DNA of 64,000 nt from an uncultured Bacilli bacterium (lineage in GTDB: Bacteria; Bacillota_I; Bacilli_A; RF39; UBA660): contig CANRNY010000002.1 of assembly GCA_947632085.1 (NCBI GenBank), positions 14,151 through 78,150 on the forward strand, in the 5' to 3' direction. Position numbers and translations under genes: made by a program. Under the pieces are notes generated by a model. That model was not told the DNA's origin, made no database searches, and saw nothing but the letters and a program-made list of their open reading frames with translations. Within the stretch, counting starts at the first letter, position 1, and every line of letters starts with the position of its first letter. Below, in pieces: positions 43,731-64,000 of this stretch.

Positions 43731-43731
43731 G

Positions 43732-46026: not shown

Positions 46027-46066
46027 GTTTGCTTATTAAAGTAGATTTAAAAAGGAGGAAACTTTA

Positions 46067-47026
46067 ATGGAAAGATATCCCCATAATTATCAAAAATATG
46101 AAGATTATATATTTCCTCCAGATGAAGTTGAAATAGATGATGAAAAATATACGATTTATAAAGCACGTTTTAATAATTTATTTGAACTTTATGATTATTT
46201 AAAAAGTAATCCTAAGACCAATAATCGGGTTTTTACAACTTTACATAGTATTTCTAAAGGTAGTGATTTTGCTGGTAAACCTTATAAAGAAGCAGTAGAA
46301 GATTTAGTTAGTGAAGTTGATCCTGGTTATGAAGAGTTTTTATCTTTACAAAGAGATTTAGATAATGCGGGATTAAAAGAAGTTCATAAATATAAATTAG
46401 TAAGAACAGTTGCAGGGGGACATTTAAATATTCCGGCTTATAGTGCGGGGAATCCTTTATGCTATGAAACGGAAGAAAAGGTAAGAAGTCCAAAGTTTGT
46501 TAGAATTCATGTTACTTTATCATATTATTGGGGGACAACTAAAAAACAAGTTTTAAATCGAGCCATAATAATTACTAATGTGTTAAAAGCGTTAGAGAAA
46601 GCAGGTTATAATGTTTTATTAAATACTTTTGAATTAAGTATGGAATATGATGAAATTGTTTATATTGTTGTTCAAATAAAGAAACATGGTGAAAGAATGA
46701 ATATGGCGGCATTATATAAAACTTTATGTCGGGTTGAGTTTTTAAGAAGAATTCTATTTAGAATACTCGAAACTTTAGATGTTAAAAGAGCTTGGGAAGA
46801 TGGATATGGTTCGACTTGTAGTGCAAACTTTACAAAAAAGGTTTTACACTTTGGATCAAACGACATCTTCTTTGATCAACCACGAGAGATGGGTATTTAT
46901 GGTGATGATTTAGCCGATGACTTTGAAGCAGCGATTAAACATTTAAATTTAGAAGATAAAATAGATGTTGAAAAAGCAAAAAAAGAGTTTAAAAAAGATG
47001 TTCAAAGTTTGAAATTAAAGAGATGA
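46067..47026 (+). CDS. Hypothetical protein (319 aa) partnered with the AAA+ ATPase
   Basis: AAAGGAGGAAAC RBS. No motif recognised with confidence. The strand-helix pattern 'FVRIHVTLSYYWGTTKKQVLNRAIIITNVLKALEKAGYNV' is vWA-like but lacks a DxSxS MIDAS motif. Confidence 0.5.
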   Translation: MERYPHNYQKYEDYIFPPDEVEIDDEKYTIYKARFNNLFELYDYLKSNPKTNNRVFTTLHSISKGSDFAGKPYKEAVEDLVSEVDPGYEEFLSLQRDLDNAGLKEVHKYKLVRTVAGGHLNIPAYSAGNPLCYETEEKVRSPKFVRIHVTLSYYWGTTKKQVLNRAIIITNVLKALEKAGYNVLLNTFELSMEYDEIVYIVVQIKKHGERMNMAALYKTLCRVEFLRRILFRILETLDVKRAWEDGYGSTCSANFTKKVLHFGSNDIFFDQPREMGIYGDDLADDFEAAIKHLNLEDKIDVEKAKKEFKKDVQSLKLKR

Positions 47027-47043: not shown

Positions 47044-47108
47044 TATGGAATGAATATTGTATTATATGGGATAGAGTGTTATACTTTAGGAAGATAAAGA
47101 GGTGTGAT

Positions 47109-50780: not shown

Positions 50781-50846
50781 GGGATTAATTGACACTATAA
50801 TTTATTTTTTGTATATTTTTATTGATAGAATATGGTGATAGTTATT

Positions 50847-52061
50847 ATGAATGATGAAGAAATTTATTATATAAGTAACTTAGAAGAACTAGATAATTTT
50901 TTACAAGGTAAATATAGTGGTAAAACGGAAGAAAAAATACCATTATTCTTTATTAAAAGTAATAATGGATATTTTTTGTATGATGAGTCGGTACCATATT
51001 TTAAAAAAGCGCCAGAAATATCAAGTGTTAGTTTTTTAGCTAATGTTAAATTATTAATGGCAATTCATAATAGATATATACCTATATTTAGTAAAGAAAC
51101 TAAAAATTTATTATTTACGGAAGATGAGTTTTGGGCGCTTAGAAAAAAGATGAGTGGCTTAAAGAAGTATAATTGTGGAGACTTTATATTTGCTGATGAT
51201 TTATCTTTTCCGGGAATAGATGAATTAATGGTGGAAATAGAACAAAATAATAAAAAAGTAGATAGTTTAAAGACGGTTGTCGAAGACGATATTAGAAGTT
51301 TATTTAAACAGATTGGAATAGATTTAAGTTTTGATCATCATGAGGGGATTGTAAAATTACTTGATACTGGTTCAACATCACGTGGAACTAGTGTTCCATC
51401 ACCTAATGGAGAAGTTGGAGGAGATTTTGATTTTCTACTTAGAGCTCCAGGTGGAGATATAGAAAGAATTAAAGATTTTTTAATAAATAAATTAGGTAGA
51501 CAATGTCCAAATAAGTTAATAAGTCGTCATCGAATTAGATTGTTTGGTGTTCAATTAGAGGGGTTAGATAAACCAATAGATATAGATGTATCATTTGTAA
51601 GAAGTGATAAGGATTACTATGCGACAGAAGAAGCTTTAAGTGATCGTCTTGAACAAATAAAGAAGCAAGATGAAATGAAATATTTATTAGTTCAAGCGAA
51701 TATAGTAATGGCTAAGAAAGTTTTAAAAGAAGCAGGGGTTTATAAACCTAGTCGTAGTGATAAAAGTCAAGCGGGTCTTGGCGGAATTGGCATTGAAAAT
51801 TGGATTTTACAATATGGTGGTTCGTTTAAGGCAGCAGCACTTGATTTTTTAGTTCATGCTAAAGGTAAAGACTTTATTGAATTTGAAAAAGAATATAGTA
51901 TTTTTGATTTTGGAAATAATCATATTAGTATAGCTAGACATAGATTTCCTTATGATAATTTTGTCATAAAAAATATGCGACAAAATGGTTATTTTTTGAT
52001 GCAACAAGCTTTATTAAAATATATTAATTCGTTACCAAAAGAGGAAACATTAAAGTTTTAA
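50847..52061 (+). CDS. Pol-beta-superfamily nucleotidyltransferase with unassigned N-terminal domain
   Basis: 'LLDTGSTSRGTSVPSPNGEVGGDFDFLLRA' (G-S...D-x-D) and third acidic strand 'PIDIDVSFV'. Downstream 'GLGGIGIENWILQYGG' resembles the helix after the NTase core in class I CCA-adding/PAP-like enzymes. GGTGA RBS supports ATG 50847 (track start 50832). Confidence 0.6.
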   Translation: MNDEEIYYISNLEELDNFLQGKYSGKTEEKIPLFFIKSNNGYFLYDESVPYFKKAPEISSVSFLANVKLLMAIHNRYIPIFSKETKNLLFTEDEFWALRKKMSGLKKYNCGDFIFADDLSFPGIDELMVEIEQNNKKVDSLKTVVEDDIRSLFKQIGIDLSFDHHEGIVKLLDTGSTSRGTSVPSPNGEVGGDFDFLLRAPGGDIERIKDFLINKLGRQCPNKLISRHRIRLFGVQLEGLDKPIDIDVSFVRSDKDYYATEEALSDRLEQIKKQDEMKYLLVQANIVMAKKVLKEAGVYKPSRSDKSQAGLGGIGIENWILQYGGSFKAAALDFLVHAKGKDFIEFEKEYSIFDFGNNHISIARHRFPYDNFVIKNMRQNGYFLMQQALLKYINSLPKEETLKF

Positions 52062-52069
52062 AATAGTAG

Positions 52070-52098
52070 AGGAATTCTAAAATAAAAGAATTCCTTTT
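52070..52098 (+). terminator. Rho-independent terminator
   Basis: AGGAATTCT / AGAATTCCT perfect 9-bp stem, 8-nt loop, T-run. Confidence 0.7.
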
Positions 52099-52157
52099 AT
52101 ATTGTAATTCTCTATTATTTAAGTTATAATTACTAGAGAATAGGGAGTGTGGCAAGT

Positions 52158-55100
52158 ATGAAAATTATGTTGATGGATGCTACAAAATTAGTAAATTTAG
52201 TTCTTCCTAATGATGTTTTTGGTAACTATTGGATTGTTAATGCTAACAGAGAAAATTTAGTTAGTGTCCAAGCTTCCGAAGGTAATTGGGTGTTAAAAAG
52301 TAATAGTGATGTTAAAGTATTTAGAAATGGTACTGCTGTAGATGATACTTTACTTGAATATGAAAAATTTTATACTCTTAAAAATGTTTTATTAGGAGAT
52401 AGTTATGTTATTTATACTTGTCCAGTTTATGATGAAAATGCTTTACAATTAAATATTTCGATAAATGGTTTAAATGGTAATAATACGTGGTATATAGGTA
52501 ATAATGGAGCACAAAATGGAGATGGTAGTTCTAGTTATCCTAATATTATTTCATATGAACAACCTGGAGTAGCAAAAAATCAATTAAAATTAGATTATAA
52601 TAATGGTATTTATTCAGTTACAAATATAAATCCACAAATACCAATGTATATTAATGGAGCTCCAGCTGTAAATGCAGATTTAAGATATGGAGATACAATA
52701 TTTATTTTAGGATTAAAATTATCAATTATTAAAGATATATTCTATATTAATAATCCAAATAAATTAGTTAAATTCGATTCACAAATGTTTAATATGAGAA
52801 TGACTCAGGAACTTGATTTTTCAAAGATTCCAACAGAACCTGATCCAGTTATTGAGATGTATAAAAAAGAAGATTATTTCTTAAAACCACCAAGATTTGA
52901 TGAGAGAATCGAAGAGAAAACTTTAGTTATTGATCCACCACCAGCTGCCCAAAAGCAAGAAGAAATGCCAGCTATTTTAACGATGGGTTCAATGATGATG
53001 ATGGGTATGAGTTCAATGATGACAGGAGTTATGACTTTAACGAATGTTATTAATGGAACAACACAGTTATCAGCAGCTTTACCATCATTACTAACGGCAG
53101 CAGCAATGCTTTCATGTATGCTTATCTTACCAGCTGTTAGTAAAATGTATAATAAACATAAAAAAGTAGTATATGAAAGAAAAAGACAAGCAACGTATAG
53201 TAATTATGTTAATAAGAAAAGAGAAGAATTTTTAATTGAAATAAAAAGAGAACAACAACTTTTAATTGAAAAATATATTCCATTAAAAGATGTTGGTGAT
53301 ATTATCTTGTATAAAAAGAGAAATTTATGGGAAAAGAATGCTGATGATTATGACTTTTTATCTTTAAGATTAGGTATTGGTTCAATTCCACCATTCTTTA
53401 AAGTTAATTATCCTGACGAACATTTCTCAATGGAAGATGAAGATAATTTAATGGGCTATTTAAGAGAGTTAGAAAAAGAAACTAATTTACTTGAAAATGT
53501 TCCAGTTACTTATTCATTTGTAGAAAAATATATAACAGCTGTTATTGGACAGAAAAATGTTACTAATCCATTTTTAAGAGGACTTTTATTACAAATAATT
53601 GCTTATCATGGTTATGATTCATTAAAAGTATGTGTATTTACAAATAAAGAGAATGAAAAGTTCTGGGAAGATATTAAAGATTGTCCATATTTTTGGGATG
53701 ATAATAGAACATTAAGATTTTTCGGAACGAATACTGATGAAATAAATCAAATAAGTTCTTATTTTGAAGAATTACTTAATAGTATAAAAGAAGCTAATGA
53801 AGAAAAAGATGCAGTAGGTGGTCAAAAAGGAACAGCTAAATTATCAACTAGATATTTAATTATTACGGATGATATTGATTTAGTTAGAAATGTAAGTGTT
53901 ATTCGTTCTTTAATTGAGTCAGTTGAATATGTTGGTATTAGTTTGTTAATATTTACAGAAAAATTAAATTCTTTACCTAATGAAGTTGAACACTTTATAA
54001 GTGTTGATGAACGTACTGGTGGCGTATTTGAAAGAGTATTATCAGATAGCCGTAGAATTAATTTTGTACCAGATTTTATGTATGGTTCACTTGAAAAATA
54101 TACTTATGTTTTATCTAATATTCCAATTGCTTTAAATGGTGGTAAATTCCAGTTACCTTCTTCATATTCTTTCTTAGAAATGTATAATGTATCTAATGTT
54201 AATCAATTAAATGCTTTAGCAAGGTGGAAAGAAAGTGATCCAATTAATTCATTAGCTGTACCAATTGGTGTTAATGAGTATGGTGAATTATTTAAGTTAG
54301 ATTTACATGAAAAAGCGCATGGACCACATGGCTTGATTGCTGGTATGACTGGTTCAGGTAAATCAGAATTTATTATTACATTTATCTTAAGTACAGCAAT
54401 TAATTTCCATCCATATGAAGTACAGTTTGTTTTAATCGATTATAAAGGTGGAGGTTTAGCTGGAGCTTTCGAAAATAGAGAGACAGGTTTAAGATTACCA
54501 CATCTAGCTGGAACAATTACCAACTTAGATGTTAGTGAAATAAATCGTAGTTTAGCATCATTACAAAGTGAACTTAAAAGACGTCAAGCAGTATTTAATA
54601 AAGCAAGAGATAAAGTTGGTGAATCAACTATTGATATTTATAAGTATCAAAGATTATATCGTAATGGACAAGTTGATGAACCTGTATCACATTTGTTTAT
54701 TATTTCTGATGAGTTTGCAGAGTTAAAAGCGCAACAACCAGATTTTATGAACGAACTTATTTCAACAGCTCGTATTGGACGTTCATTAGGTGTTCACTTA
54801 ATTTTGGCTACACAAAAGCCTAGTGGTGTTGTTAATGACCAAATTTGGTCAAATGCGAAGTTTAAAGTTTGTTTAAAAGTTCAAGATAGATCAGATAGTC
54901 AAGAAATGATTAAAAGACCTGATGCTGCTTCTTTAAAAGAAACTGGTCGTTTCTTCTTACAAGTTGGTTATGATGAATATTTTGCTTTAGGTCAATCAGC
55001 TTGGACTGGAGCTCCTTATTATGAATCTGATGTAAGAAAGAAAAAGATTGATAATTCAATTACCTTTGTTGATAACTTAGGAATGCCTATTAAAGTTGTT

Positions 55101-56825
55101 GAAGATGGCCGTAATAGTTTCTCTGGAGTATTAAAAGGTGAAGAATTACCAAATATTATGAAATACTTAGTAGATGTTTCAAAAAAAGAAAATATTAAAG
55201 TTAAACAATTATGGCTTAATGCTTTAGCACCAGTTATTTATATTGATGCTTTAAAAGAAAAATATAGCTATAAGAAAATTGCTTGTGATATTAATCCAGT
55301 AATTGGTGAATATGATGCGCCTAACTTACAAAAACAAGGTTTACTTACTATGCCAATTACTACGCAAGGTAACTGGATAGTTTATGGTATGGCTGATAGT
55401 GGTAAAGAAGAAATGATTAATTCATTAGTTTATTCTTGTATTACGACTTATTCACCAGCTGAAATAAATTTATATTTACTTGATTTTGGAGCAGAAACTT
55501 TAAAAGTTTATCGTAAAGCACCACAAGTTGGTGATGTAATATTACAAAACGATGTTGATAAAGTTATTAATTTATGGAAAGTAATTAGTGATACGGTTGC
55601 TAAGAGAAAGAAATTATTCGCTGATTTTGGTGGTGATTATATTTCTTATTCTAAAGCTACTGGTAAGGTTATTCCAAATATAGTAATTATTATTAATGGT
55701 TTTGAATTATATAATGAAAATTTTGGGGATGATACATTTGATTTATTAGCAACATTAACTCGTGATTGTCAAAAGTATGGTGTTTACTTTATTATGACAT
55801 CAACTACTTCTAATGGTATTAGAACTAGACTTTCACAATACTTACCAAATCATTTAGTATTCCAAATGAATGATAAGTATGATTATTCTTCATTACTTGC
55901 AAGAACAAAAATTGAACCAGCTAATGTAAGTGGTCGTGGTTTAGTAAAACTAGATTCAGTATTTGAATTCCAAGCTGCTGTACCAACAGAAAAAGAAAAT
56001 TTAAATACTTTTGTTTTAGATAAGATTAATGAATTATGTAAATTATATCCTGATAGTGCACCAAAGGTTCCAGTACTTCCAGATGTAGTAACTGTCGCTT
56101 ATTGTTCTGATCAAAGAAAAGGTGTTAATTCTATTCCAGTTGGGATTGAAAAAGAATCATTACAAGTTAGAACTTTCGATTTAACAAGAAGTACAGTTAA
56201 TATCATAACAGGTATGGAATTTAATGAAATTAAAAACTTTGGGGAACTATTTATTAGAGAAGTTGCTAGTTGTATTGGTAAAAATTGTTATGTATATGAC
56301 TTAGAAAAAGCTTATAAAGATTTAGAGAATTATACAACTTATTATGACAATACAATTTTAGATAACTTTAAAACTTTTGGTAAACAAGTCTTTGATATGT
56401 ATACAAAATATAAAGATTCAGGATTTGATGTCGAATCATTAAAAGAATACGGAGAATATATTTGTTTTATCGTTGGAATTGATAAATTTAAAAATATGTT
56501 AGCGACTGAATTTGATGGGGCTTATAGTGGATTAGTTTCAATGATAAAAGGAATGCCTAAAGTTAGATTCGTAATAATTGATTCAAGTGATAATATTAAG
56601 AAACGTGAGTTTGAACCATGGTACAAAGATACAGTATCAGGTACAAGAGGCGTTTGGGTAGGCAATGGTATGGGTACACAATATACGATTAAATCGACAT
56701 TATCTTCTAGAGTATTATCTGCTAAATTGGAAAAGAATTTTGGTTATTACGTAGATGGAAATACAACTGTTTTAGTTAAGCTTATTTCTGAAATGGGAGA
56801 TGAAGAAGTTTACGAGACTTTATAA
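52158..56825 (+). CDS. essC: Type VII secretion system ATPase EssC/YukB (FtsK/SpoIIIE family)
   Basis: FHA-like N-terminus and two hydrophobic segments. D1 core 'LHEKAHGPHGLIAGMTGSGKSEF...LIDYKGGG...FIISDEFAELK...RIGRSLGVHLILATQKPSGV' closely matches S. aureus EssC from memory. Two further, degenerate P-loop domains ('YGMADSGKEEM'). ATG 52158 is better spaced from GGGAG than track GTG 52149. Confidence 0.95.
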   Translation: MKIMLMDATKLVNLVLPNDVFGNYWIVNANRENLVSVQASEGNWVLKSNSDVKVFRNGTAVDDTLLEYEKFYTLKNVLLGDSYVIYTCPVYDENALQLNISINGLNGNNTWYIGNNGAQNGDGSSSYPNIISYEQPGVAKNQLKLDYNNGIYSVTNINPQIPMYINGAPAVNADLRYGDTIFILGLKLSIIKDIFYINNPNKLVKFDSQMFNMRMTQELDFSKIPTEPDPVIEMYKKEDYFLKPPRFDERIEEKTLVIDPPPAAQKQEEMPAILTMGSMMMMGMSSMMTGVMTLTNVINGTTQLSAALPSLLTAAAMLSCMLILPAVSKMYNKHKKVVYERKRQATYSNYVNKKREEFLIEIKREQQLLIEKYIPLKDVGDIILYKKRNLWEKNADDYDFLSLRLGIGSIPPFFKVNYPDEHFSMEDEDNLMGYLRELEKETNLLENVPVTYSFVEKYITAVIGQKNVTNPFLRGLLLQIIAYHGYDSLKVCVFTNKENEKFWEDIKDCPYFWDDNRTLRFFGTNTDEINQISSYFEELLNSIKEANEEKDAVGGQKGTAKLSTRYLIITDDIDLVRNVSVIRSLIESVEYVGISLLIFTEKLNSLPNEVEHFISVDERTGGVFERVLSDSRRINFVPDFMYGSLEKYTYVLSNIPIALNGGKFQLPSSYSFLEMYNVSNVNQLNALARWKESDPINSLAVPIGVNEYGELFKLDLHEKAHGPHGLIAGMTGSGKSEFIITFILSTAINFHPYEVQFVLIDYKGGGLAGAFENRETGLRLPHLAGTITNLDVSEINRSLASLQSELKRRQAVFNKARDKVGESTIDIYKYQRLYRNGQVDEPVSHLFIISDEFAELKAQQPDFMNELISTARIGRSLGVHLILATQKPSGVVNDQIWSNAKFKVCLKVQDRSDSQEMIKRPDAASLKETGRFFLQVGYDEYFALGQSAWTGAPYYESDVRKKKIDNSITFVDNLGMPIKVVEDGRNSFSGVLKGEELPNIMKYLVDVSKKENIKVKQLWLNALAPVIYIDALKEKYSYKKIACDINPVIGEYDAPNLQKQGLLTMPITTQGNWIVYGMADSGKEEMINSLVYSCITTYSPAEINLYLLDFGAETLKVYRKAPQVGDVILQNDVDKVINLWKVISDTVAKRKKLFADFGGDYISYSKATGKVIPNIVIIINGFELYNENFGDDTFDLLATLTRDCQKYGVYFIMTSTTSNGIRTRLSQYLPNHLVFQMNDKYDYSSLLARTKIEPANVSGRGLVKLDSVFEFQAAVPTEKENLNTFVLDKINELCKLYPDSAPKVPVLPDVVTVAYCSDQRKGVNSIPVGIEKESLQVRTFDLTRSTVNIITGMEFNEIKNFGELFIREVASCIGKNCYVYDLEKAYKDLENYTTYYDNTILDNFKTFGKQVFDMYTKYKDSGFDVESLKEYGEYICFIVGIDKFKNMLATEFDGAYSGLVSMIKGMPKVRFVIIDSSDNIKKREFEPWYKDTVSGTRGVWVGNGMGTQYTIKSTLSSRVLSAKLEKNFGYYVDGNTTVLVKLISEMGDEEVYETL

Positions 56826-56858
56826 GGGGTTAACGAGTGTTAACCTCTTGTTTATTCG

Positions 56859-56887
56859 TTGACTTTAAATTTTTTTAAGTGTATTAT
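56859..56887 (+). promoter_or_regulatory. Candidate promoter of the yukD-esx operon
   Basis: TTGACT (56859-56864), 17-nt spacer, TATTAT (56882-56887). Preceded by hairpin GGGGTTAAC/GTTAACCTC (56826-56848). Confidence 0.5.
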
Positions 56888-56986
56888 GAATATATAAGAG
56901 TATATAATCGATGGTTGTGGGGAATTGGTCAGAAATGGTAAGCTATCATATATTCTTAAGTCTACTGTTTAATAGGAGGTTTTATT

Positions 56987-57244
56987 ATGAATAATAATAA
57001 GGTCTGTGTAGATTTGATTGTGCCTAGTATCGAAGAAAGATACAATGTTTTTATTCCTGTTAATAAGAAGACTATTGAAATTATATTCTTATTAAATAAG
57101 GCGATTAGTGATATGACAGATGGTAGTTTTCCAATGTCTGATAAGTTGTCATTAATTAATGCTGATAACGGGGCTGTTTATGATGTTGATAAAACTTTTT
57201 TAGAGAACAACATTTTAAATGGTGCAAAAATAATTTTGATATAA
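56987..57244 (+). CDS. esaB: YukD/EsaB-like ubiquitin-fold T7SS protein
   Basis: 85 aa. The 'VCVDLIVPSIEERYNVFIPVNKKTIEI...' beta-grasp-like pattern, the size and the position next to essC all fit. Confidence 0.75.
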   Translation: MNNNKVCVDLIVPSIEERYNVFIPVNKKTIEIIFLLNKAISDMTDGSFPMSDKLSLINADNGAVYDVDKTFLENNILNGAKIILI

Positions 57245-57259
57245 GGAGGTGTAAGATTA

Positions 57260-57568
57260 GTGGAAACATTTAGAATTTCAGGAGAAGAAATGGGTCAAAC
57301 TATTTCTATGTTAAAAAGTGCTGCTGAAGCAATGAACGATGTAGCTGACGAGATGAAAGAAACTGTTAAAAACGTATTACTTACAAGTGGGTTAAGTGGT
57401 GATACTGCAAACACTTTAACTGAAATGTATGATCAAGACGTATTAACTTCTATTCGTAATTTTAACGAAGAATTAAATGAATATATAGCTAAAAATGAAA
57501 CAGTTTATAATGCTGCTCAAGAAACAAGTTCAGCAACAAATAGAATTGCTAGTTCTGTTGTAAAATAA
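57260..57568 (+). CDS. Small helical WXG100-superfamily-like protein (LSG in place of WXG)
   Basis: 102 aa, helix-turn-helix length, central 'SGLSGDTANTL'. AAGGAGG RBS, GTG start. Confidence 0.6.
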   Translation: METFRISGEEMGQTISMLKSAAEAMNDVADEMKETVKNVLLTSGLSGDTANTLTEMYDQDVLTSIRNFNEELNEYIAKNETVYNAAQETSSATNRIASSVVK

Positions 57569-57589
57569 TTGATGAAAGGGTGATTATAG

Positions 57590-57907
57590 GTGAAAGAGAC
57601 ATTCGATGTCCAAGCTGCAACTGAAGCTTTAAAAACAGCTTTAGCAAGTAATGATGAATTAATTGCTAAATTTGCTGATGCAAATAAAAAAGTAGAAGAA
57701 GCTTTTACTTCTGCTGGTGGAGCATTAGGTGGTAATTTAGGTACTATTGCTGGTAACTTATGGGTAGAAGGCTCTGGAGAAAGCTTCGAACATAAAGTTA
57801 GAACTCAAACTGAAAATTTCCTTGCTTATAAAGTTAATGAAATCATTAATGAAATGGAATCATTTTCTGAATCAGCAAGTCAAACTTATGGTAATAGTGG
57901 TCAATAA
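57590..57907 (+). CDS. Small helical WXG100-superfamily-like protein
   Basis: 105 aa, central 'LWVEGSGESFEHKV'. Paired with the preceding ORF. Confidence 0.6.
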   Translation: MKETFDVQAATEALKTALASNDELIAKFADANKKVEEAFTSAGGALGGNLGTIAGNLWVEGSGESFEHKVRTQTENFLAYKVNEIINEMESFSESASQTYGNSGQ

Positions 57908-57912
57908 TTTAT

Positions 57913-57977
57913 ATACTGCATAGTTTTTATGCAGTATGTTATAAATAAAAAATTATAATTTTTTATTTATAACATAC
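57913..57977 (+). other. Two overlapping hairpins (9-bp stem plus perfect 44-nt palindrome)
   Basis: ATACTGCAT (57913-57921) / ATGCAGTAT (57929-57937). GTATGTTATAAATAAAAAATTA / TAATTTTTTATTTATAACATAC spans 57934-57977. The two structures share 57934-57937. Confidence 0.8.
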
Positions 57978-58000
57978 TTGGAGTATAAGGAGGTTATGAT

Positions 58001-58297
58001 ATGGCTTATGATTTTGAATTTGACGATGAAAAAGTAACAGAAGTAGTTGAGACGATTTTTGAATCATATGAGAATCTTTGGGATAATTGTGATAATTTAT
58101 ATAATGAACTAGGAAATATGGAAGATTCTTGGTCAGGGGATACGTATGAAAATTATGTATCTGGTATTAAATCATATGAAGGTTCCGTCAGAGGTGTTCC
58201 TTCAATTCTTTGGGCTTTTAGAGAAGCTTTACTTGATGCCAAAGAAAAAGGAAATGATTTAATAACTAATGTAAAATCTTCACTTGATATATTTTAA
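58001..58297 (+). CDS. WXG100 family protein (EsxA-like)
   Basis: 98 aa with central 'EDSWSGDTYENYV' (W-S-G). AAGGAGG RBS. Confidence 0.8.
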   Translation: MAYDFEFDDEKVTEVVETIFESYENLWDNCDNLYNELGNMEDSWSGDTYENYVSGIKSYEGSVRGVPSILWAFREALLDAKEKGNDLITNVKSSLDIF

Positions 58298-58308
58298 GGA
58301 GGTAAATT

Positions 58309-58773
58309 ATGGCAGGGTTGAATGAAAATTTTTCTAATAGTCGTGTTTCTTCAACAATATCAAAAACAGTTTTATCAAACTTTAAAGAAGTTTATGATAT
58401 TGAAGGAATGGCAGGACATATATCTAGTTTTGCTGGTTTACTTCAAGCATATGAAGAAGAGACAGGTAAAATAGATGATTCAGTATCGGAAACGATAGGT
58501 GCTGATGGCTTTAAAGGTGATTATGCCAATAAATTACTTGATACATATGAAAGTTTAGTTGGTAATTTTACTGGCTTTCTTGAGCATTATGATGAATGGA
58601 ATGATATGGTTGCTGTTGAAGACTCAATGTATGGCTCATTTAATGAAAAATCAATAGGTGAGTATAAAAGTGTTGGTAGTGGCGGTAAACTACCTTATAA
58701 GAAAGCTTCTGAAAATCGTAGTCCTAGTGGTAAAAAAGTTACTACTACTAATACTACTCCTGCAGTTAAATAA
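58309..58773 (+). CDS. Helical T7SS-associated protein (FKG variant of the WXG turn) with Ser/Thr-rich tail
   Basis: 154 aa, 'GADGFKGDYANKLLDTYE'. No TM. Confidence 0.55.
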   Translation: MAGLNENFSNSRVSSTISKTVLSNFKEVYDIEGMAGHISSFAGLLQAYEEETGKIDDSVSETIGADGFKGDYANKLLDTYESLVGNFTGFLEHYDEWNDMVAVEDSMYGSFNEKSIGEYKSVGSGGKLPYKKASENRSPSGKKVTTTNTTPAVK

Positions 58774-58808
58774 CATGACAATTAATATTGAATAAGAGGT
58801 GAAATATT

Positions 58809-59048
58809 ATGAAATATAGTACAGTTGGTGGAGCAACTGAAGAGATTGATAAGGCATTATCAGCTGCTGATGCTCTTTTAGCACTTCTTACTGTAGATAC
58901 TTTGGATTCGGATGCTGCACATCTTGATACAATTAATGAAAAAGTAAAAAAATTGAAAGAAGATGTAGAGCAAAATAAGGAAGATTTAATTGAAAAAGCT
59001 GAAAAGATGAAAACGATTGATGATGAAGTGACGGGAGGTTGGTCATAA
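58809..59048 (+). CDS. Small helical protein (79 aa), T7SS locus
   Basis: GAGGTGA RBS and a coiled-coil-like sequence. Its stop overlaps the next start by 1 nt. Confidence 0.5.
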   Translation: MKYSTVGGATEEIDKALSAADALLALLTVDTLDSDAAHLDTINEKVKKLKEDVEQNKEDLIEKAEKMKTIDDEVTGGWS

Positions 59049-61582
59049 TGCCATATTTAAAAATAAATAAAGCTAATCTTACTGATACCGTTGCTAAGTC
59101 TGAAGAAACAAAAGAGAGTTTAAATAGTGCTGAAACAGCTTTAACTAATTTTGTTAGTTCAGCGAAAACACATTGTAGTAATTGGGAAAATAGCTATTGG
59201 CAAAAATTTAAAGATCAAGCTGGAATTAGTGAAAGCTCTTATATGATAACTACTGCAGATGGTTCTGAATTAGATAAAGATCGATATAATGCTGCAGTAG
59301 AGGCTGCTGCAAGACAGATTGTAAAAAATAAAATGGAAGAATATAAAGGCTATACAACTGATATGACTAAAGTAATACATGAAAATTATACGTTGATGCT
59401 TGATGTATATACAGCTTTTAATAATGTACAAAATTATTTAAATGAATTTGAAGGCAATACAGTTGGTTCATTAGAAGAATACTTTAAAGCTAGTTTTGAT
59501 AGACATGATCTTGATTATGAAGATTATAATTACAGTTTTGAATACGAAGTTGATAAAAAAGGAAATGAAATTCAAACTTTAGCTGTTGAAGTTTCAGGTG
59601 CTTATGCAAACTTAGATGAAACTGCAGTAGAATTTATTACTAGTGAAGGAGCTAAAATGATTTTACCATATGTTAAAGTATTTGATTTGGTAGATGATGA
59701 AGAGTTCCAAAATATGACTCCAGAACAACAACGTGCAGTTGTTACAAAGGTAATTCAAGAGGCAGAGGATGCAGTAGATGATCAAACTGAAAGTTATAGA
59801 AAAAGAGGATTATATTCTGTTACTGATGCTGATGAAATTGCTGATAGATATGAACAAGATACTGGCGTAAAATATAATAAAAAACGTGTTGCTAAAGAAG
59901 CTGATTACTTTAGAGAAAAAGCTGGTGTTGATAAAAAGAATGATTTTGGTCTTGGACAAACTGCAGCTGGTATGGTAACAGGAGTTGGGGTTTATAATTT
60001 TGCGAAGAGTAATGGCCCTGCTAAAAGTGAAGACTTAGAAAAAGATGGCCTTGGTTATTTAAAAAGAGGTCGTGATAATGTTGCTGAAGGTAAAAATTTG
60101 GACGAAGATGGTAATGTAGATAAGAAAAAATTAATTAAACCTGAACCTGGTGAAGGTCCAAAAACTAAAGATGATGAAACGGAAGAAATTGCATTAGATA
60201 AAGAAATTGAAATTGGTGATGAAGACACTGAAACTGTGAGTGAAGGTACTAGTGAAGATGCTAGTGGAGCTACTGGTGGTTCCGGCGGAGGTACCGGTGG
60301 CGGTGGCTACTCTGATGATGGAGGTTCATCCGGTGGTGGCGGAGGTGGAAGCAGCTCAAGCTCTAGCTCAAGCTCAACTCCAGAACCAAGTCCTGAACCA
60401 AAACCAGATACAACACCAGAACCAGTAGTTGATAAAATTATTCCAGATAATAGAACAACAGAGTTAATAGATGATCCAATTCCTAAGAGTCCTGAGGTTG
60501 AAACTAAATATGATAATGCTACTATTGATAGATTAGCAGAAGAAGAATACTATAATAGATATACTCCAGAAGAATTAGCTGATTATAGAAATGAACAAAT
60601 GAATGAATTAGAAGAAATGTATGTTCAAGAAGATAAGAGTGAATTAATTGAATTCTTAACTGATTCAGGATATGAATTAAGTGATGCTCAAGTAATTGCT
60701 GAAGATAAAGAACTTAGTCTTGCGGCATTCTTAGCTGCTAAACAAAGTGCTGATATGGCAGATATTTCTAAATCAATTGCTCAAGGGGCAAATGTGGATA
60801 TGTCACATTTTGATACTAGATATGATGATGTTCCATCTTATAAAGATTTAGTTTCTGGTGAAACAAGTGCTTCATTATCAAATCCAAATAACGATCCAAA
60901 TGTAGCTAATGCTAGACAAAATATGAATAATGCTAAAGCTCAATATGATAAAGCTGTTGATAATGCTAATAAGTCAATAGAAAATGCAAATGATAATAAA
61001 GACAAATTAGATAGCATTAGAAAGAGCATAGTTAAAAAATCTGGAAATGATAGTAGTAAATGGTCTGAAGCAGAAATTGAGAAATATAATGATGCTGTTA
61101 AGGATTACAATGATTCAGTAAGAGAAGCTAATGAAGATGTTGCTACAGCCCAAGAAGCTAAAGAAACATATGAAAATACTAAAGAAGCATATGAAAATAG
61201 TAGAGAAGCTTACTATGAACGTGTAAAAGAAGACTTACAAGCTAATAAAGGAACTACTGATAATGTAGGAGAAACACCAGAAGTATCTGATACACCACAA
61301 AATGGTGGTGGAACACCAGATGTTGAAGTTAAAGATGATGGTATTGGTCTTCCTAAAGAACCAGCGGGAACTGAAGTTAAAGACGATGGTATTGGTGTTC
61401 CAGCTGAGTCAGTTGATAACTCACAAGATGGTTATGTTTCAGTAGATGAAAATGGAACAGGTATGGGTATTAGAAATACTGATACAGAAAATGATAATTT
61501 TACAAATGAAAATAATGAAGAATACATATACCATGAATCTGAAGGACAAGTAAATGTTAGCAATAATGGTATTGGTGTATAA
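59048..61582 (+). CDS. Large acidic candidate T7SS substrate (LXG-like N-terminal helical region, Gly/Ser/Pro linker, coiled-coil C-terminal part)
   Basis: GGGAGG is 9 nt before ATG 59048. No signal peptide. Glycine-zipper-like 'GLGQTAAGMVTGVGVYNFA', low-complexity 'GGSGGGTGGGGYSDDGGSSGGGGGGSSSSSSSSSTPEPSPEPKPDTTPEP', and terminal 'VKDDGIG(L/V)P' repeats. Confidence 0.6.
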   Translation: MPYLKINKANLTDTVAKSEETKESLNSAETALTNFVSSAKTHCSNWENSYWQKFKDQAGISESSYMITTADGSELDKDRYNAAVEAAARQIVKNKMEEYKGYTTDMTKVIHENYTLMLDVYTAFNNVQNYLNEFEGNTVGSLEEYFKASFDRHDLDYEDYNYSFEYEVDKKGNEIQTLAVEVSGAYANLDETAVEFITSEGAKMILPYVKVFDLVDDEEFQNMTPEQQRAVVTKVIQEAEDAVDDQTESYRKRGLYSVTDADEIADRYEQDTGVKYNKKRVAKEADYFREKAGVDKKNDFGLGQTAAGMVTGVGVYNFAKSNGPAKSEDLEKDGLGYLKRGRDNVAEGKNLDEDGNVDKKKLIKPEPGEGPKTKDDETEEIALDKEIEIGDEDTETVSEGTSEDASGATGGSGGGTGGGGYSDDGGSSGGGGGGSSSSSSSSSTPEPSPEPKPDTTPEPVVDKIIPDNRTTELIDDPIPKSPEVETKYDNATIDRLAEEEYYNRYTPEELADYRNEQMNELEEMYVQEDKSELIEFLTDSGYELSDAQVIAEDKELSLAAFLAAKQSADMADISKSIAQGANVDMSHFDTRYDDVPSYKDLVSGETSASLSNPNNDPNVANARQNMNNAKAQYDKAVDNANKSIENANDNKDKLDSIRKSIVKKSGNDSSKWSEAEIEKYNDAVKDYNDSVREANEDVATAQEAKETYENTKEAYENSREAYYERVKEDLQANKGTTDNVGETPEVSDTPQNGGGTPDVEVKDDGIGLPKEPAGTEVKDDGIGVPAESVDNSQDGYVSVDENGTGMGIRNTDTENDNFTNENNEEYIYHESEGQVNVSNNGIGV
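61325..61420 (+). repeat. Tandem 48-nt duplication encoding EVKDDGIG(L/V)P units
   Basis: GAAGTTAAAGATGATGGTATTGGTCTTCC (61325) versus GAAGTTAAAGACGATGGTATTGGTGTTCC (61373). A third 'NNGIGV' lies at the C-terminus. Confidence 0.7.
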
Positions 61583-61603
61583 TAGAGGTAAGGAGGAAAG
61601 AAT

Positions 61604-61978
61604 ATGAGAGAAAAGTATTTACCAATTGGAACGGTAGTTTTATTAAAAGGTGGAAAGAAAAGAGCGATGATTACTGGATTTTGTTCTGTAGCTCAAGAAA
61701 ATCAAGAAAAAATATATGATTACAGTGGATGTGTATATCCAGAAGGTTATTTAAGCTCTAATCAAGTTTGTTTATTCGATCATGATCAAATTGAAAAGAT
61801 TTTCTTCCTTGGCTTCGAAGATGATGAAGAAAAAGTCTTCAAAGATAAATTAAATAAAATTGTTTCTTTAATTGAAAATAACAATGGCAATACAAGTGTT
61901 AATGCAGATGGTACAGAAGGTAGTGCAGCTAGTACTGAACAAATAACTCCTTTTGCTCCAGCTGTTGAGGAAAATTAA
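61604..61978 (+). CDS. DUF4176-like protein (T7SS-associated)
   Basis: 'YLPIGTVVLLKGGKKRAMITGF...YDYSGCVYPEGY...LFDHDQIEKIFFLGFEDDEE' matches the DUF4176 pattern common in T7SSb/LXG loci. Confidence 0.7.
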   Translation: MREKYLPIGTVVLLKGGKKRAMITGFCSVAQENQEKIYDYSGCVYPEGYLSSNQVCLFDHDQIEKIFFLGFEDDEEKVFKDKLNKIVSLIENNNGNTSVNADGTEGSAASTEQITPFAPAVEEN

Positions 61979-62005
61979 AAAAAGACTATACATTAGTCTT
62001 TTTTT
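61979..62005 (+). terminator. Rho-independent terminator
   Basis: AAAGACTA / TAGTCTTT stem, loop TACAT, T-run. Confidence 0.75.
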
Positions 62006-62027
62006 ACATTTTATAAAAATCTTTTTA

Positions 62028-62056
62028 TTGATTAATTAGGATAATTTTTATATAAT
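62028..62056 (+). promoter_or_regulatory. Candidate promoter of the esx pair
   Basis: TTGATT (62028-62033), 17-nt spacer, TATAAT (62051-62056). The leader contains hairpin AGTCAAG/CTTGACT. Confidence 0.55.
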
Positions 62057-62168
62057 TAGAAATATAAGGATATGATGAGTAAGCTAGGGGTGTTTGGTAT
62101 ATAAGTCAAGCATTGTATTCTTTATGTTACTTGACTATATTCTTATAAAATTTTATGGAGGTGAAAAT

Positions 62169-62465
62169 ATGTCAAATGGTTTAGCAATTGATACAGAATT
62201 AGTTAACACTTCAGGAAGTGGTATCAATACTAACGGAACTACTTTCCAAGAAGAAGTAGAAAAATTCAAAAATCATAAAGAGGCTATTTTAGGTATCTGG
62301 AATGGAGAAGATGCTACTGAATTTGGAAATGTTGCAAATGAAGTTGCTACTTTACTTAATGAAGCTTCAATTACTGTACAAGAAGTTGGTACTCATTTAG
62401 TTAGTACTGCAAATGCTATGGATGAAACTGTAGCTGCTAATAAATCTAGCATGTCTGGAATCTAA
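62169..62465 (+). CDS. WXG100 family protein
   Basis: GGAGGTGA RBS before ATG 62169 (track start 62094 is upstream in the leader). Central 'LGIWNGEDATEFG' (W-N-G). 98 aa. Confidence 0.85.
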   Translation: MSNGLAIDTELVNTSGSGINTNGTTFQEEVEKFKNHKEAILGIWNGEDATEFGNVANEVATLLNEASITVQEVGTHLVSTANAMDETVAANKSSMSGI

Positions 62466-62494
62466 TAAAATATAAGAGAGGAAAGTGAATTAAT

Positions 62495-62794
62495 ATGGCT
62501 TTAGATAAATTAAATTATGAACAATTTACTCAAGAACAAACTGCTATTAATTCTTGCATTAGTAACATTGAACAAGAATTAAATGCTGCTAATAGTAAAT
62601 TAAATGAAGCAACAAGTGATGCTTCAGGTAAATGGGCTAATACTGATATTGAAGATTGGAATAGAATTTATGGCGATATTAACGCTAAATTCACAAGACT
62701 TCAAGAACTTATGAGAGCTGCTGCTGCTGCTGTTCAAAAAACAGAAAGTACAGAAAGTGCTTATAGTGGTTTTAGCAATACTACACAAGCTTAA
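62495..62794 (+). CDS. WXG100-like partner protein (EsxB-like, no strict WXG)
   Basis: 99 aa, helical, adjacent to and co-oriented with the WXG100 gene. GAGAGGAAAG RBS. Confidence 0.7.
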   Translation: MALDKLNYEQFTQEQTAINSCISNIEQELNAANSKLNEATSDASGKWANTDIEDWNRIYGDINAKFTRLQELMRAAAAAVQKTESTESAYSGFSNTTQA

Positions 62795-62804
62795 TAATGA
62801 ATAT

Positions 62805-62866
62805 ATGTACTACGAAAGTAGTACATTGTAAGTCGCTAATCTTTTTGGTTTAGCGATTTACAATGT
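62805..62866 (+). other. Two overlapping hairpins (9-bp GAAA-loop stem plus 17-bp stem)
   Basis: ATGTACTAC (62805-62813) / GTAGTACAT (62818-62826). ACATTGTAAGTCGCTAA (62823-62839) / TTAGCGATTTACAATGT (62850-62866) with one G-U pair. The two structures share 62823-62826. Confidence 0.8.
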
Positions 62867-62894
62867 ATTATTTATACAGAAAGATGGTGTGATT

Positions 62895-64000
62895 ATGGCA
62901 TATGATTTTACCGCTGATAGTGATATTCAAACTACTTTATCTGGTGAATTAACTGCACAAGCTAGTGAGTTTGAAACACAAGTAAGTCAATTGTATAGCG
63001 AAATTGATGGTTTAGCTTCATCATGGAAAGGTGAGGACTATACAGCTTTTAATGAGGGAGCTCATGGTTATGAAAAAGCATTAGCTGATTTAAAAGAAAG
63101 TATAGATCTTTTTGCTAAACATTTTGAAAGACTTTCTGCGGGAACAGAGGAGTTGGCTGTCAGTCTTGCAACGATAATTGAAAATGCTTTAGAAGGCGGT
63201 GAAGCTGGAGGATCTAGTGGTTCAGGAGGAACTGGTGGTTCTGGTGATAGCGCTGATCAAGATGCTGCAAGAGGTCAAACAAAGAGTGATGGTTCAGTTA
63301 ATCCATATGGTGGAGGAAGACCTGATAGAGTAGAAAATCCAGATGGCTCTTATTCTTATGTCTATAGAGATAAAGATGGTAATATAAGACAAAAAGATAC
63401 TTGGGATAAAGATGGTAATTTAATTGGACAAGAGACTTATGATGAGGACGGTAAAACCAAAAATTATTCTATGCAAGTTGATCAGACCGATGGTTCTTAT
63501 GTCGTTGAAAAATTTGATGGCGATAATATATTATCTCATGAAGAAAGAGATGCTGATGATAAATTAATTAAGTCAATTGAATATGGATACGATGCTGATG
63601 GAAATAATAATTTAAAAACTACTACTAATGCTGATGGTACTCGCTTTGAAGAAGATATTTCAAATGACGAAACAGTAGGTATTAGAGTTTATGACGAAAA
63701 TAATGAACTACAATTTGAAAATAAAACAGAAAATGCTTCTGAAATAGCTGCAGCTTTAGCTGCTGGGGCTTCATATACTTTGGGACCTAATGGTATGTAT
63801 CGAATCGATTCTAAAGATGCTGATGGAACAGTTGAAACTGTATATGATAAAGATGGTTCTAAACGTAAATGTAAGTATCAAAATAGCGATGGTACTTCTA
63901 AACTGGAATATTATAATAATGGTGAGATTGAAGAAACATTTGAATATGATTCAGATGGAAATCCTACTGCCCATTACAAAGTTAATGAAGATGGTGAATT
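62895..64000 (+). CDS. WXG100-domain / Rhs (YD-repeat) polymorphic toxin, 5' part (runs off the window)
   Basis: Not in the ORF track because it has no stop. Translation MAYDFTADSDIQ...'ASSWKGEDYTAFN' (W-K-G), Gly/Ser linker, then YD repeats 'YRDKDGNIRQKDTWDKDGNLIGQETYDEDGKT', 'YGYDADGNN', 'YDKDGSKR', 'EYDSDGNPT'. Confidence 0.8.
   Translation, partial: MAYDFTADSDIQTTLSGELTAQASEFETQVSQLYSEIDGLASSWKGEDYTAFNEGAHGYEKALADLKESIDLFAKHFERLSAGTEELAVSLATIIENALEGGEAGGSSGSGGTGGSGDSADQDAARGQTKSDGSVNPYGGGRPDRVENPDGSYSYVYRDKDGNIRQKDTWDKDGNLIGQETYDEDGKTKNYSMQVDQTDGSYVVEKFDGDNILSHEERDADDKLIKSIEYGYDADGNNNLKTTTNADGTRFEEDISNDETVGIRVYDENNELQFENKTENASEIAAALAAGASYTLGPNGMYRIDSKDADGTVETVYDKDGSKRKCKYQNSDGTSKLEYYNNGEIEETFEYDSDGNPTAHYKVNEDGE

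What the first reader, a model, noticed from the sequence alone, without database searches (positions are those of the whole stretch)
52158..64000. Type VIIb secretion locus in which essC is detached from the usual membrane-component genes
Seen: the locus starts with a 1555-aa EssC/YukB-type ATPase. After it come a YukD/EsaB-like ubiquitin-fold ORF, at least six small or fused WXG100-superfamily ORFs, a DUF4176-like ORF and a WXG-Rhs toxin. Established: Firmicute T7SSb loci (S. aureus ess, B. subtilis yuk/yue) place essC immediately after esaA/essA/esaB/essB (yueB/yukD/yukC). Here the genes upstream of essC are thrS and a nucleotidyltransferase. essC is bracketed by a terminator (52070-52098) on one side and a hairpin plus promoter (56826-56887) on the other. 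None of the 11 downstream ORFs has the pseudokinase plus single-TM architecture of EssB/YukC, the polytopic architecture of EsaA/YueB, or a small TM protein like EssA. By eye, EssC is the only product in 52-64 kb with convincing TM helices. Inference: either the partners lie beyond the window, or this lineage uses a reduced or rewired T7SSb core.
Basis: partly seen in the sequence, partly recalled or inferred. Interest (0 to 1): 0.7.

Follow-up and report, generated by a model that had tools for sequence, protein, structure and literature searches.

The report
Stripped-down type VII secretion locus
An uncultured gut bacterium, and at least 30 related species, carry a type VII protein-export locus whose only conserved machine genes are the EssC motor and a small ubiquitin-like helper, so it looks like a new stripped-down variant of a secretion system already known to vary.

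Summary
The core observation holds. The gene at 52158-56825 is a genuine EssC with FHA domains, two membrane helices and an intact first ATPase site. An 85-aa YukD/EsaB-like gene follows it, then small WXG100-like genes, an uncharacterised 844-aa protein ("BIG") and a DUF4176 gene.

No EssB/YukC, EsaA/YueB or EssA was found in the parts of the window that were scanned. None was found in the 8.8 kb beyond its end either, recovered from an identical metagenome contig. There the locus ends at a UvrD-type helicase.

The layout is lineage-wide. Among 36 related loci (Candidatus Coprovivens and other uncultured Bacilli; EssC 36-94% identical), the 85-aa gene follows essC in 32-34. No canonical membrane partner appears within 10 kb of any. 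essC and the 85-aa gene are as constrained as thrS (dN/dS about 0.04), so the system is not decaying.

T7SS variants lacking EssB/EsaA/EssA are already published (T7SSc-j, Garrett et al. 2024). This is therefore a new variant of a known kind, not a new principle.

Whether the partners are encoded elsewhere in the genome could not be tested. The "Rhs" label is not supported, and the "nucleotidyltransferase" label rests on motifs only.

The parts
52068..52097 (+). Terminator-like hairpin after the 409-aa ORF and upstream of essC. A promoter-like site follows at 52102-52130.
   Evidence: Consensus scan and sequence. These are consensus matches only.
52158..56825 (+). essC: a 1555-aa FtsK/SpoIIIE-type T7SS ATPase with two N-terminal FHA-like domains, two membrane helices (about residues 272-330) and three P-loop domains.
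   Evidence: TIGR03928 968 bits, cutoff 778. PF01580. B. subtilis YukB (9qks) E 1e-123. N-terminal profile hits FHA domains at E 5.5e-8 and Geobacillus EssC FHA (5fwh) at 1.5e-4. D1 Walker A and B conserved in 36 of 36 sequences. dN/dS 0.04-0.06.
56822..56887 (+). 13-bp-stem hairpin (56822-56851) followed by a promoter-like TTGACT-17-TATTAT (56859-56887), between essC and the 85-aa gene.
   Evidence: Consensus matches only.
56987..57244 (+). B85: an 85-aa YukD/EsaB-like (TsxB-like) small protein, probably ubiquitin-fold.
   Evidence: Follows essC in 32-34 of 36 loci. dN/dS 0.03. AF2 topology is beta-beta-alpha-beta-beta at pLDDT 61. Foldseek hits are ubiquitin-like folds including YukD 2bps (TM 0.42-0.44) and the EccD5 ubiquitin-like domain, all non-significant. 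Pfam YukD hits 3 of 18 members, best E 0.008.
57260..57568 (+). 102-aa WXG100-like protein (family w8), a candidate EsxA/TsxA.
   Evidence: PF06013 E 1.2e-4 and TIGR03930 E 1.6e-4, both below cutoff. Holds a fixed position after B85 in 13 loci.
57590..57907 (+). 105-aa helical protein (family w7), a candidate partner of the 102-aa protein.
   Evidence: No HMM hit. Holds a fixed position next to w8 in 14 loci.
58001..58297 (+). 98-aa WXG100-like protein with a W-S-G motif, probably a Lap-like helper of the downstream effector.
   Evidence: PF06013 E 0.038 and TIGR03930 E 0.0028. Sequence.
58309..58773 (+). 154-aa helical protein of the WXG-related cluster. Its length varies from 137 to 819 aa among relatives.
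   Evidence: Clustering. No HMM hit.
58809..59048 (+). 79-aa helical protein. Its TAA stop overlaps the ATG of the next gene (TAATG), which suggests translational coupling.
   Evidence: A gene of about 79 aa holds this position in most Coprovivens-clade loci.
59048..61582 (+). BIG: an 844-aa protein of an uncharacterised family. It has a variable helical N-terminus, a Gly/Ser/Pro-rich linker, a conserved C-terminal domain of about 290 aa ending in a long helical hairpin, and a tail of D-D-x-G-I-G repeats.
   Evidence: Present in 21 of 40 loci. No Pfam or PDB hit. Only 128 cluster representatives among 1.84 billion proteins. Two locus copies share only the C-terminal domain. Fast-evolving: 40-51% identical where EssC is 94%. 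AF2 pLDDT 80-91 for helices 617-734 only.
61604..61978 (+). 124-aa DUF4176 protein, a family reported to stabilise an LXG toxin in T7SSb.
   Evidence: PF13780 E 8.8e-28. dN/dS 0.13-0.15. Paper title and abstract for PMC12482557 as listed.
62169..62465 (+). 98-aa WXG100-like protein with a W-N-G motif. The 123-aa TTG-start version with a hydrophobic N-terminus is probably not the real start.
   Evidence: PF06013 E 2.4e-5 and TIGR03930 E 6.6e-6. Called as 98 aa on public contigs.
62495..62794 (+). 99-aa WXG100-like helical protein.
   Evidence: TIGR03930 E 0.0038. Exact copies on 6 public contigs.
62895..64000 (+). 5' part of a 686-aa protein with a WXG100-like N-terminus, an Asp/Gly-rich repeat region and an unknown C-terminal domain. 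It ends at window-equivalent 64955 on L001.
   Evidence: PF06013 E 3.3e-5 and TIGR03930 E 8e-6, with no RHS or YD hit. Full sequence.

Best explanation
This is a working, streamlined type VII secretion locus of a lineage-wide variant found in uncultured gut Bacilli (Candidatus Coprovivens and relatives).

The only conserved, genetically linked machine parts are the membrane ATPase EssC, which carries FHA domains like T7SSb EssC, and an 85-aa YukD/EsaB-like protein.

Inferred mechanism:
- EssC hexamers form the membrane channel.
- The 85-aa protein docks on the EssC FHA and DUF domains and stabilises assembly, as YukD does on YukB in B. subtilis.
- A WXG100-like pair (102 and 105 aa) serves as the core secreted substrate.
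- Two downstream modules supply cargo: small WXG/Lap-like helpers, a large helical-N-terminus protein (BIG, or the 686-aa protein) and DUF4176 chaperones.

The peripheral T7SSb proteins EssB, EsaA and EssA are not part of the locus. They are either dispensable here or replaced by unrelated proteins.

Shown: gene identities, the absence of partners from the locus and its flanks, conservation across species, and purifying selection. Inferred: channel formation by EssC alone, the docking role of the 85-aa protein, and the substrate roles.
For: - **EssC identity and intact catalytic site:**
- **No partner in the locus:** no EssB/EsaA/EssA HMM hit and no membrane protein other than EssC from 52 kb to window-equivalent 72.8 kb. 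The locus ends at a UvrD-type helicase.
- **No partner upstream:** none among the upstream ORFs scanned.
- **Conserved layout:** 32-34 of 36 loci with downstream sequence keep essC followed by the 85-aa gene.
- **Membrane neighbours identified as other things:** those scanned with Pfam are an MMPL transporter, a P-type ATPase, a thioester adhesin or unknowns. None has EssB or EsaA architecture.
- **Selection:** dN/dS is 0.04-0.06 for essC, 0.03 for the 85-aa gene and 0.04 for thrS, while downstream genes diverge fast, as effectors do.
- **Literature:** the YukB hexamer forms the central channel, and YukD binds the YukB FHA, DUF and ATPase-1 hairpin (10.1101/2025.01.24.634720). T7SS subtypes c-j share only the ATPase, WXG100 and YukD-like components (PMC11217815).
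Against: - The rest of the genome could not be searched, so unlinked essB, esaA or essA genes are not excluded.
- In one relative (L007) essC sits alone between der and rpsO. T7 genes can therefore be dispersed in this lineage.
- In canonical T7SSb the EssC FHA2 domain binds EssB, and FHA domains are retained here. YukD binding could explain that on its own.
- The YukD-like assignment of the 85-aa protein rests on weak statistics.
- All WXG100 hits are below the curated cutoffs.
- No positive-control scan of a canonical T7SSb locus was run.
Confidence: 0.55

Rival explanations
1. This is an ordinary T7SSb whose essB, esaA and essA genes are simply encoded elsewhere on the chromosome, as a split operon.
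For: Whole genomes could not be scanned. L007 shows essC separated from every other T7 gene. L009 and L032 have only essC, the 85-aa gene and two tiny ORFs, so the WXG genes must be elsewhere. EssC passes the T7SSb-type equivalog model and keeps FHA domains.
Against: No canonical partner lies within 10 kb in any of 36-40 loci spanning EssC identities of 36-94%. The characterised T7SSb systems keep these genes with essC. Eight published subtypes show that EssC systems without them are common.
Confidence: 0.22
2. The core is rewired. Lineage-specific proteins replace EssB and EsaA, in particular the BIG family. BIG would itself be exported and then insert in the membrane or span the wall through its Gly-zipper segment, long linker and conserved helical domain.
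For: BIG is found in 21 of 40 loci, always within the T7 cluster. The family is tiny and restricted, with 128 representatives. Its C-terminal domain is conserved while its N-terminus varies, the reverse of a polymorphic toxin. Half of 40 diverse members have a Gly-zipper-like hydrophobic segment.
Against: BIG evolves fast, at 40-51% identity where EssC is 94% (dN/dS 0.5-0.8), like a substrate or surface protein. It is absent from the more distant loci that still keep essC plus the 85-aa gene. The window copy has no convincing hydrophobic segment; its maximum 19-residue hydropathy is 0.85. It is flanked by Lap-like genes and DUF4176, as LXG effectors are. The structure model is uninformative.
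Confidence: 0.15
3. The locus is a decaying remnant of a T7SSb that lost its membrane partners and no longer secretes.
For: The canonical partners are missing from the locus. The D2 and D3 nucleotide-binding motifs are degenerate.
Against: essC and the 85-aa gene are intact in all species. Their dN/dS equals that of thrS. D1 Walker A and B are invariant in 36 of 36 sequences. Degenerate D2 and D3 motifs are, from my own knowledge, usual for EssC. The effector modules are intact and diversifying.
Confidence: 0.03

Closest known systems
T7SSb (S. aureus Ess; B. subtilis Yuk/Yue)
   Same: [quoted passage not shown] A small YukD/EsaB-like gene next to essC. WXG100-like proteins, DUF4176 and Lap-like helper genes around large helical-N-terminus cargo.
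   Different: No EssB/YukC pseudokinase, EsaA/YueB or EssA/YueC in the locus or within 10 kb in any relative. essC lies at the head of the cluster directly after thrS. There is a pair of WXG-like genes rather than one esxA.
T7SSg (Garrett, Higginson and Palmer 2024, PMC11217815)
   Same: A very simple predicted core of two WXG100 proteins, a YukD-like protein and the ATPase.
   Different: TsgC lacks FHA domains and a DUF5050 beta-propeller (TsgL) is part of the core, with Tad pilus genes adjacent. Here the FHA domains are present and no DUF5050 family was reported in the Pfam scans of the locus ORFs. T7SSg hosts are Acetivibrio and Paenibacillus.
T7SSf (same paper)
   Same: An FHA-bearing ATPase reported to cluster near T7SSb EssC, plus WXG100 and YukD-like proteins, with partial loss of the phosphothreonine-binding residues.
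   Different: T7SSf also has a PPM phosphatase (TsfF), a DUF6382-FHA membrane protein (TsfJ) and an AAA+ ATPase with a TadZ-like domain (TsfV). None of these is in this locus. The AAA protein 6 kb upstream (43723-46026) belongs to a variable island absent from many relatives.
LXG toxin modules with Lap helpers and DUF4176
   Same: Gene order: small helical helpers, then a large protein with a helical N-terminus, then DUF4176. The modules diverge rapidly between close genomes.
   Different: No LXG (PF04740) hit. The C-terminal domain of the large BIG protein is the conserved part, not a swappable toxin domain. No obvious immunity genes.

Membership tests
T7SSb (Ess/Yuk) | [quoted passage not shown] | tested here: met
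   TIGR03928 968 bits, above the 778 cutoff. FHA profile hits. YukB 9qks E 1e-123. Membrane segment. D1 motifs.
T7SSb (Ess/Yuk) | EssB/YukC: a membrane pseudokinase with about 220 cytoplasmic residues, one membrane helix and an extracellular domain | tested here: not met
   No YukC or EssB hit and no such topology in the locus, in the 8.8 kb beyond the window, or within 10 kb in 36-40 relatives. Genome-wide presence could not be tested.
T7SSb (Ess/Yuk) | EsaA/YueB: a large polytopic protein with a long extracellular domain | tested here: not met
   No hit and no such topology. The only large polytopic neighbours scanned are an MMPL transporter (L011) and a P-type ATPase (L019).
T7SSb (Ess/Yuk) | EssA/YueC: a small single-pass membrane protein | tested here: not met
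   No membrane-bearing small ORF in 56.8-72.8 kb. Intergenic gaps are at most about 160 nt.
T7SSb (Ess/Yuk) | EsaB/YukD: a small ubiquitin-fold protein | tested here: inconclusive
   Position, size and beta-grasp-like topology fit. Pfam YukD hits 3 of 18 members (best E 0.008). Foldseek gives YukD TM 0.42-0.44 at E 3.7. hhalign is not significant.
T7SSb (Ess/Yuk) | EsxA: a WXG100 substrate | tested here: inconclusive
   Five ORFs hit the WXG100 models at E 8e-6 to 0.04, all below the curated cutoffs. True W-x-G motifs occur in three.
Generic T7SS core (TsxA, TsxB, TsxC; Garrett et al. 2024) | A membrane FtsK-like ATPase, a WXG100 protein and a YukD-like protein encoded together | tested here: met
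   essC, the 85-aa gene and WXG-like genes are contiguous and conserved. The caveats on the two small proteins given above apply.
T7SSg | ATPase without FHA domains, plus a DUF5050 beta-propeller (TsgL) | tested here: not met
   FHA domains are present. No DUF5050 family was reported in the Pfam scans of the locus ORFs.
T7SSf | PPM phosphatase TsfF, DUF6382-FHA protein TsfJ and AAA+ protein TsfV in the cluster | tested here: not met
   None of these domains appears in the locus ORFs or in the listed Pfam annotations of L006-L010.
   The protein is 686 aa, with no RHS or YD hit in Pfam or NCBIfam at E up to 0.05. Asp/Gly-rich repeats are seen only by eye.

The most novel reading that the evidence does not exclude
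This clade has no EssB, EsaA or EssA homologue anywhere in its genomes. EssC plus an 85-aa ubiquitin-like protein would then be a sufficient T7SS machine in a walled Gram-positive bacterium. That would make it the simplest FHA-bearing T7SS described, with the lineage-restricted BIG family as its signature exported envelope protein.
Probability: 0.35. Interest if true: 0.65.

Novelty: new variant of a known kind. Interest (0 to 1): 0.5.

Why it matters
Which parts of the Gram-positive T7SS are truly required is still debated. A recent B. subtilis cryo-EM structure places YukB (EssC) at the centre as the channel, YukD as the assembly factor and YukC as a peripheral crown.

A widespread natural lineage that keeps only the EssC and YukD-like pair under strong selection would be a natural experiment supporting that view. 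It would also offer a minimal system for reconstitution.

The finding adds uncultured gut Bacilli from rabbit, mouse, human and ruminant MAGs to the hosts of variant T7SSs. The published survey, which used RefSeq only, could not see these. It also defines a small new protein family (BIG) tied to this system.

Tried and rejected
- **BIG homologue search.** The search for homologous proteins on the 847-aa protein returned only 2 hits, apparently because low-complexity words swamped the candidate list. I replaced it with an exhaustive HMMER search using the conserved C-terminal domain.
- **Structure of the 85-aa protein.** The permitted alignment was shallow, at 76% identity or more, and the model had pLDDT 61. 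Foldseek hits were ubiquitin-like but not significant.
- **Sequence comparison of the 85-aa family.** A PDB sequence profile search gave nothing.
- **Structure of BIG.** The full-length model had pLDDT 47, and Foldseek returned only generic long-helix hits.
- **Source record.** Look-ups did not return the NCBI record name of the 98,452-bp source contig.
- **EssB-like candidates considered and rejected:**
  - the zinc-ribbon protein with one membrane helix at 24232-25938 (no YukC or PDB hit);
  - L009 c94, 332 aa with a helix at residue 208 (not conserved with essC);
  - L011 c114 (MMPL) and L019 c121 (P-type ATPase).
- **Upstream island.** The four-gene island at 40.5-47.0 kb with an AAA ATPase is not a T7 component. 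It is present or absent among close relatives and has no convincing PADLOC hit.
- **Literature.** No paper links Coprovivens or RFN20 with T7SS.
Full report
**What is in the window**

The window has about 26% G+C and nearly all genes are on the + strand. The ORF at 52149/52158-56825 scores 968 bits against NCBIfam TIGR03928, "type VII secretion protein EssC". That model is an equivalog with a cutoff of 778 bits. The ORF also scores 154 bits against Pfam FtsK_SpoIIIE. Its best solved relative is B. subtilis YukB (9qks, E 1e-123).

A profile of the first 250 residues from 14 clade members hits FHA domains (OdhI and GarA, E 5e-8). It also hits the FHA region of Geobacillus EssC (5fwh, E 1.5e-4). 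This is therefore an FHA-bearing, T7SSb-like EssC. The 1555-aa form starting at ATG 52158 is the one recorded in public collections.

Upstream lie thrS (48994-50757) and a 409-aa ORF with no Pfam, NCBIfam or PDB hit. That ORF shows only GS...DFDF and IDIDVSF motifs by eye. A consensus scan finds the terminator-like hairpin at 52068-97, the hairpin at 56822-51 and the promoter-like site at 56859-87. These are pattern matches, not evidence of function.

**Genes downstream of essC**

In order, the genes are:
- an 85-aa ORF ("B85");
- 102-, 105-, 98-, 154- and 79-aa helical ORFs;
- an 844-aa ORF ("BIG", 59048-61582), whose ATG overlaps the preceding stop as TAATG;
- a DUF4176 gene (E 8.8e-28);
- two ORFs of about 98 aa;
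- a WXG-fused ORF that runs off the window.

Five ORFs hit the WXG100 models, all below the curated cutoffs. A 19-residue hydropathy scan finds a membrane segment only in EssC.

**Beyond the window**

The 99-aa protein at 62495-62794 is encoded on public metagenome contigs. One of them, L001, is 100% identical to window 60194-64000 and runs 8.8 kb further. It shows that the last ORF is only 686 aa. That ORF has a WXG100-like N-terminus and no RHS or YD HMM hit, so the "Rhs" label is not supported.

After it come 263-aa and 140-aa helical ORFs, a second BIG paralogue (750 aa), two DUF4176 genes and then a UvrD-type helicase. The T7 locus therefore ends at about window-equivalent 69.2 kb. It contains no EssB, EsaA or EssA and no membrane protein other than EssC.

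None of the upstream ORFs that were scanned is such a partner either. They include dapF, ezrA, ackA, recX, ftsK, glmS, engB and der, a serpin, an unannotated 2672-aa ORF and a variable four-gene island.

**Relatives**

The closest EssC homologues are 94% to 43% identical. Where named, they come from "Candidatus Coprovivens sp." or "Bacilli bacterium" MAGs. Candidatus Coprovivens is classed under Bacilli incertae sedis.

Five neighbourhoods with precomputed Pfam annotation (L006-L010) and 34 GTDB species-representative loci (L011-L044) were collected. The latter are rabbit, mouse, human and ruminant gut MAGs. I called ORFs on these and clustered them.

Of 36 loci with a full-length essC and downstream sequence, 32 have the B85 gene as the next or next-but-one gene and 33 have it within the locus. 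L010 has an 82-aa gene in that position that my ORF caller missed.

In the Coprovivens clade the order is thrS, essC, B85, w8, w7, WXG-like, WXG-like of variable length, a gene of about 79 aa, BIG, DUF4176.

No gene with YukC, EssA or EsaA annotation appears near essC in any locus. No gene with EssB-like topology (central single helix) or EsaA-like topology (N-terminal helix plus a C-terminal helix bundle) is conserved with essC. The membrane-bearing neighbours I scanned with Pfam are an MMPL transporter, a P-type ATPase, a thioester-domain adhesin or proteins without hits. In L007, essC stands alone between der and rpsO/pnp.

**Is the system alive?**

Against the two closest genomes, where EssC is 94% identical, dN/dS is 0.04-0.06 for essC, 0.03 for B85 and 0.04 for thrS. 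The WXG-like genes, BIG (40-51% identical) and the 686-aa protein diverge far faster. dS is partly saturated, so these values are approximate. D1 Walker A (G-x-T-G-S-G-K-S) and Walker B (D-E) are conserved in 36 of 36 EssC sequences, whereas D2 and D3 are degenerate. The remnant hypothesis is rejected.

**The 85-aa protein**

It has no Pfam hit above noise on its own. Among 18 diverse family members, 3 hit Pfam YukD (best E 0.008) and 5 hit other ubiquitin-like models. The AF2 model has pLDDT 61 and a beta-beta-alpha-beta-beta topology.

Its Foldseek hits are nearly all ubiquitin-like folds. They include PI3K Ras-binding domains, doublecortin, the EccD5 ubiquitin-like domain and YukD 2bps (TM 0.42-0.44). 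None is significant. Together with its fixed place after essC, I read it as the TsxB/YukD equivalent, at moderate confidence.

**The BIG family**

BIG has no Pfam or PDB sequence hit, singly or as a family. The two locus copies share only a C-terminal region of about 380 aa, at 28% identity.

An exhaustive search with the conserved C-terminal domain (296 residues) finds only 128 cluster representatives among 1.84 billion proteins. Nearly all are 650-1050 aa long, with the domain at the same relative place. Half of 40 diverse members carry a Gly-zipper-like hydrophobic segment. The window copy does not.

The AF2 model is confident only for a long helical hairpin at residues 617-734, and fold search is uninformative. 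The gene context, with small helical helpers before it and DUF4176 after it, and the fast divergence both argue that BIG is exported cargo or a surface protein rather than a core machine part.

**Comparison with what is known**

Garrett, Higginson and Palmer (2024, PMC11217815) surveyed RefSeq and defined T7SSc-j. These are eight subtypes that lack EssB, EsaA and EssA. They share only the ATPase (TsxC), a WXG100 protein (TsxA) and, in all but one subtype, a YukD-like protein (TsxB).

None of the described sets matches this locus. T7SSg is similarly simple, but its ATPase lacks FHA domains and it has a DUF5050 propeller. T7SSf has an FHA-bearing ATPase but adds a phosphatase, a DUF6382-FHA protein and an AAA+ protein. 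No paper in the searched library links Coprovivens or RFN20 with T7SS.

Oka et al. (10.1101/2025.01.24.634720) report that YukB forms the central channel. YukD binds the YukB FHA domains, the DUF domain and a hairpin of the first ATPase domain. YukC forms a peripheral crown. This makes an EssC-plus-YukD-like minimal core mechanistically plausible. It also explains why the FHA domains could be retained without EssB.

**Verdict**

The adjacent-DNA escape route is closed, but unlinked partner genes elsewhere in the genome remain possible.

The finding is best described as a new, streamlined variant within the already recognised diversity of T7SSs, together with a new associated protein family. 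It is of moderate interest. It becomes high interest only if whole-genome searches confirm that EssB, EsaA and EssA are truly absent.

Noticed in passing
window 30187-38205 (+): A 2672-aa ORF with no Pfam hit at E below 1e-4 and no predicted membrane segment, lying between glmS and engB.
   Followed up: partly
window 40471-47026 (+): A four-gene island of 624 aa, 444 aa, 767 aa (with an AAA_5/AAA P-loop at residues 485-612) and 319 aa (DUF7192). It is present in some close relatives (L013, L015, L031) and absent in others (L006, L012, L016). This suggests a mobile or defence-like island, but there is no convincing PADLOC hit.
   Followed up: partly
window 47076-48725 (+): A 549-aa serpin with an N-terminal hydrophobic segment, an uncommon gene in bacteria. 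It is also present in L011 and L015.
   Followed up: no
window 50832-52061 (+): A 409-aa ORF between thrS and essC with Pol-beta nucleotidyltransferase-like motifs (GS...DFDF, IDIDVSF) but no HMM or PDB hit. It is found in only 3 of 40 loci and is 56% identical where EssC is 94% identical.
   Followed up: partly
L009:10001-10780 and L032:7629-8408 (EssC N-termini): The more distant EssC relatives keep SRQH and GTYVN residues, which resemble the phosphothreonine-binding FHA consensus. The Coprovivens clade has AKNQ at the same place, so phospho-regulation may differ within the clade.
   Followed up: no
L007:10001-14650: In this relative (EssC 63% identical, 506-kb contig) essC stands alone between der and rpsO/pnp. 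There is no 85-aa gene and no WXG gene nearby.
   Followed up: partly
L029:4226-5818, L031:8306-9895, L019:8668-9870: A thioester-domain (TED_2) surface protein with N- and C-terminal hydrophobic segments is inserted between thrS and essC in some relatives. L008 encodes a sortase. Together with dapF, ezrA and glmS in the window, this argues that these so-called Tenericutes-like MAGs have a cell wall.
   Followed up: partly
L017:7496-9904, L025:7566-9920, L027:6856-9894: A module of a WXG-like gene, two small ORFs and a 785-1013-aa protein with one or two C-terminal hydrophobic segments is inserted between thrS and essC. It may be a membrane-active effector. The L027 copy, the only one scanned, has no Pfam hit.
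   Followed up: no
L006:5792-6265 and L006:21861-24443: Pilin-like N_methyl (PF07963) proteins of 157 aa and 860 aa flank the T7 locus in L006, L020 and L028. This recalls the unexplained co-location of T7SSg and T7SSh with Tad pilus genes.
   Followed up: no
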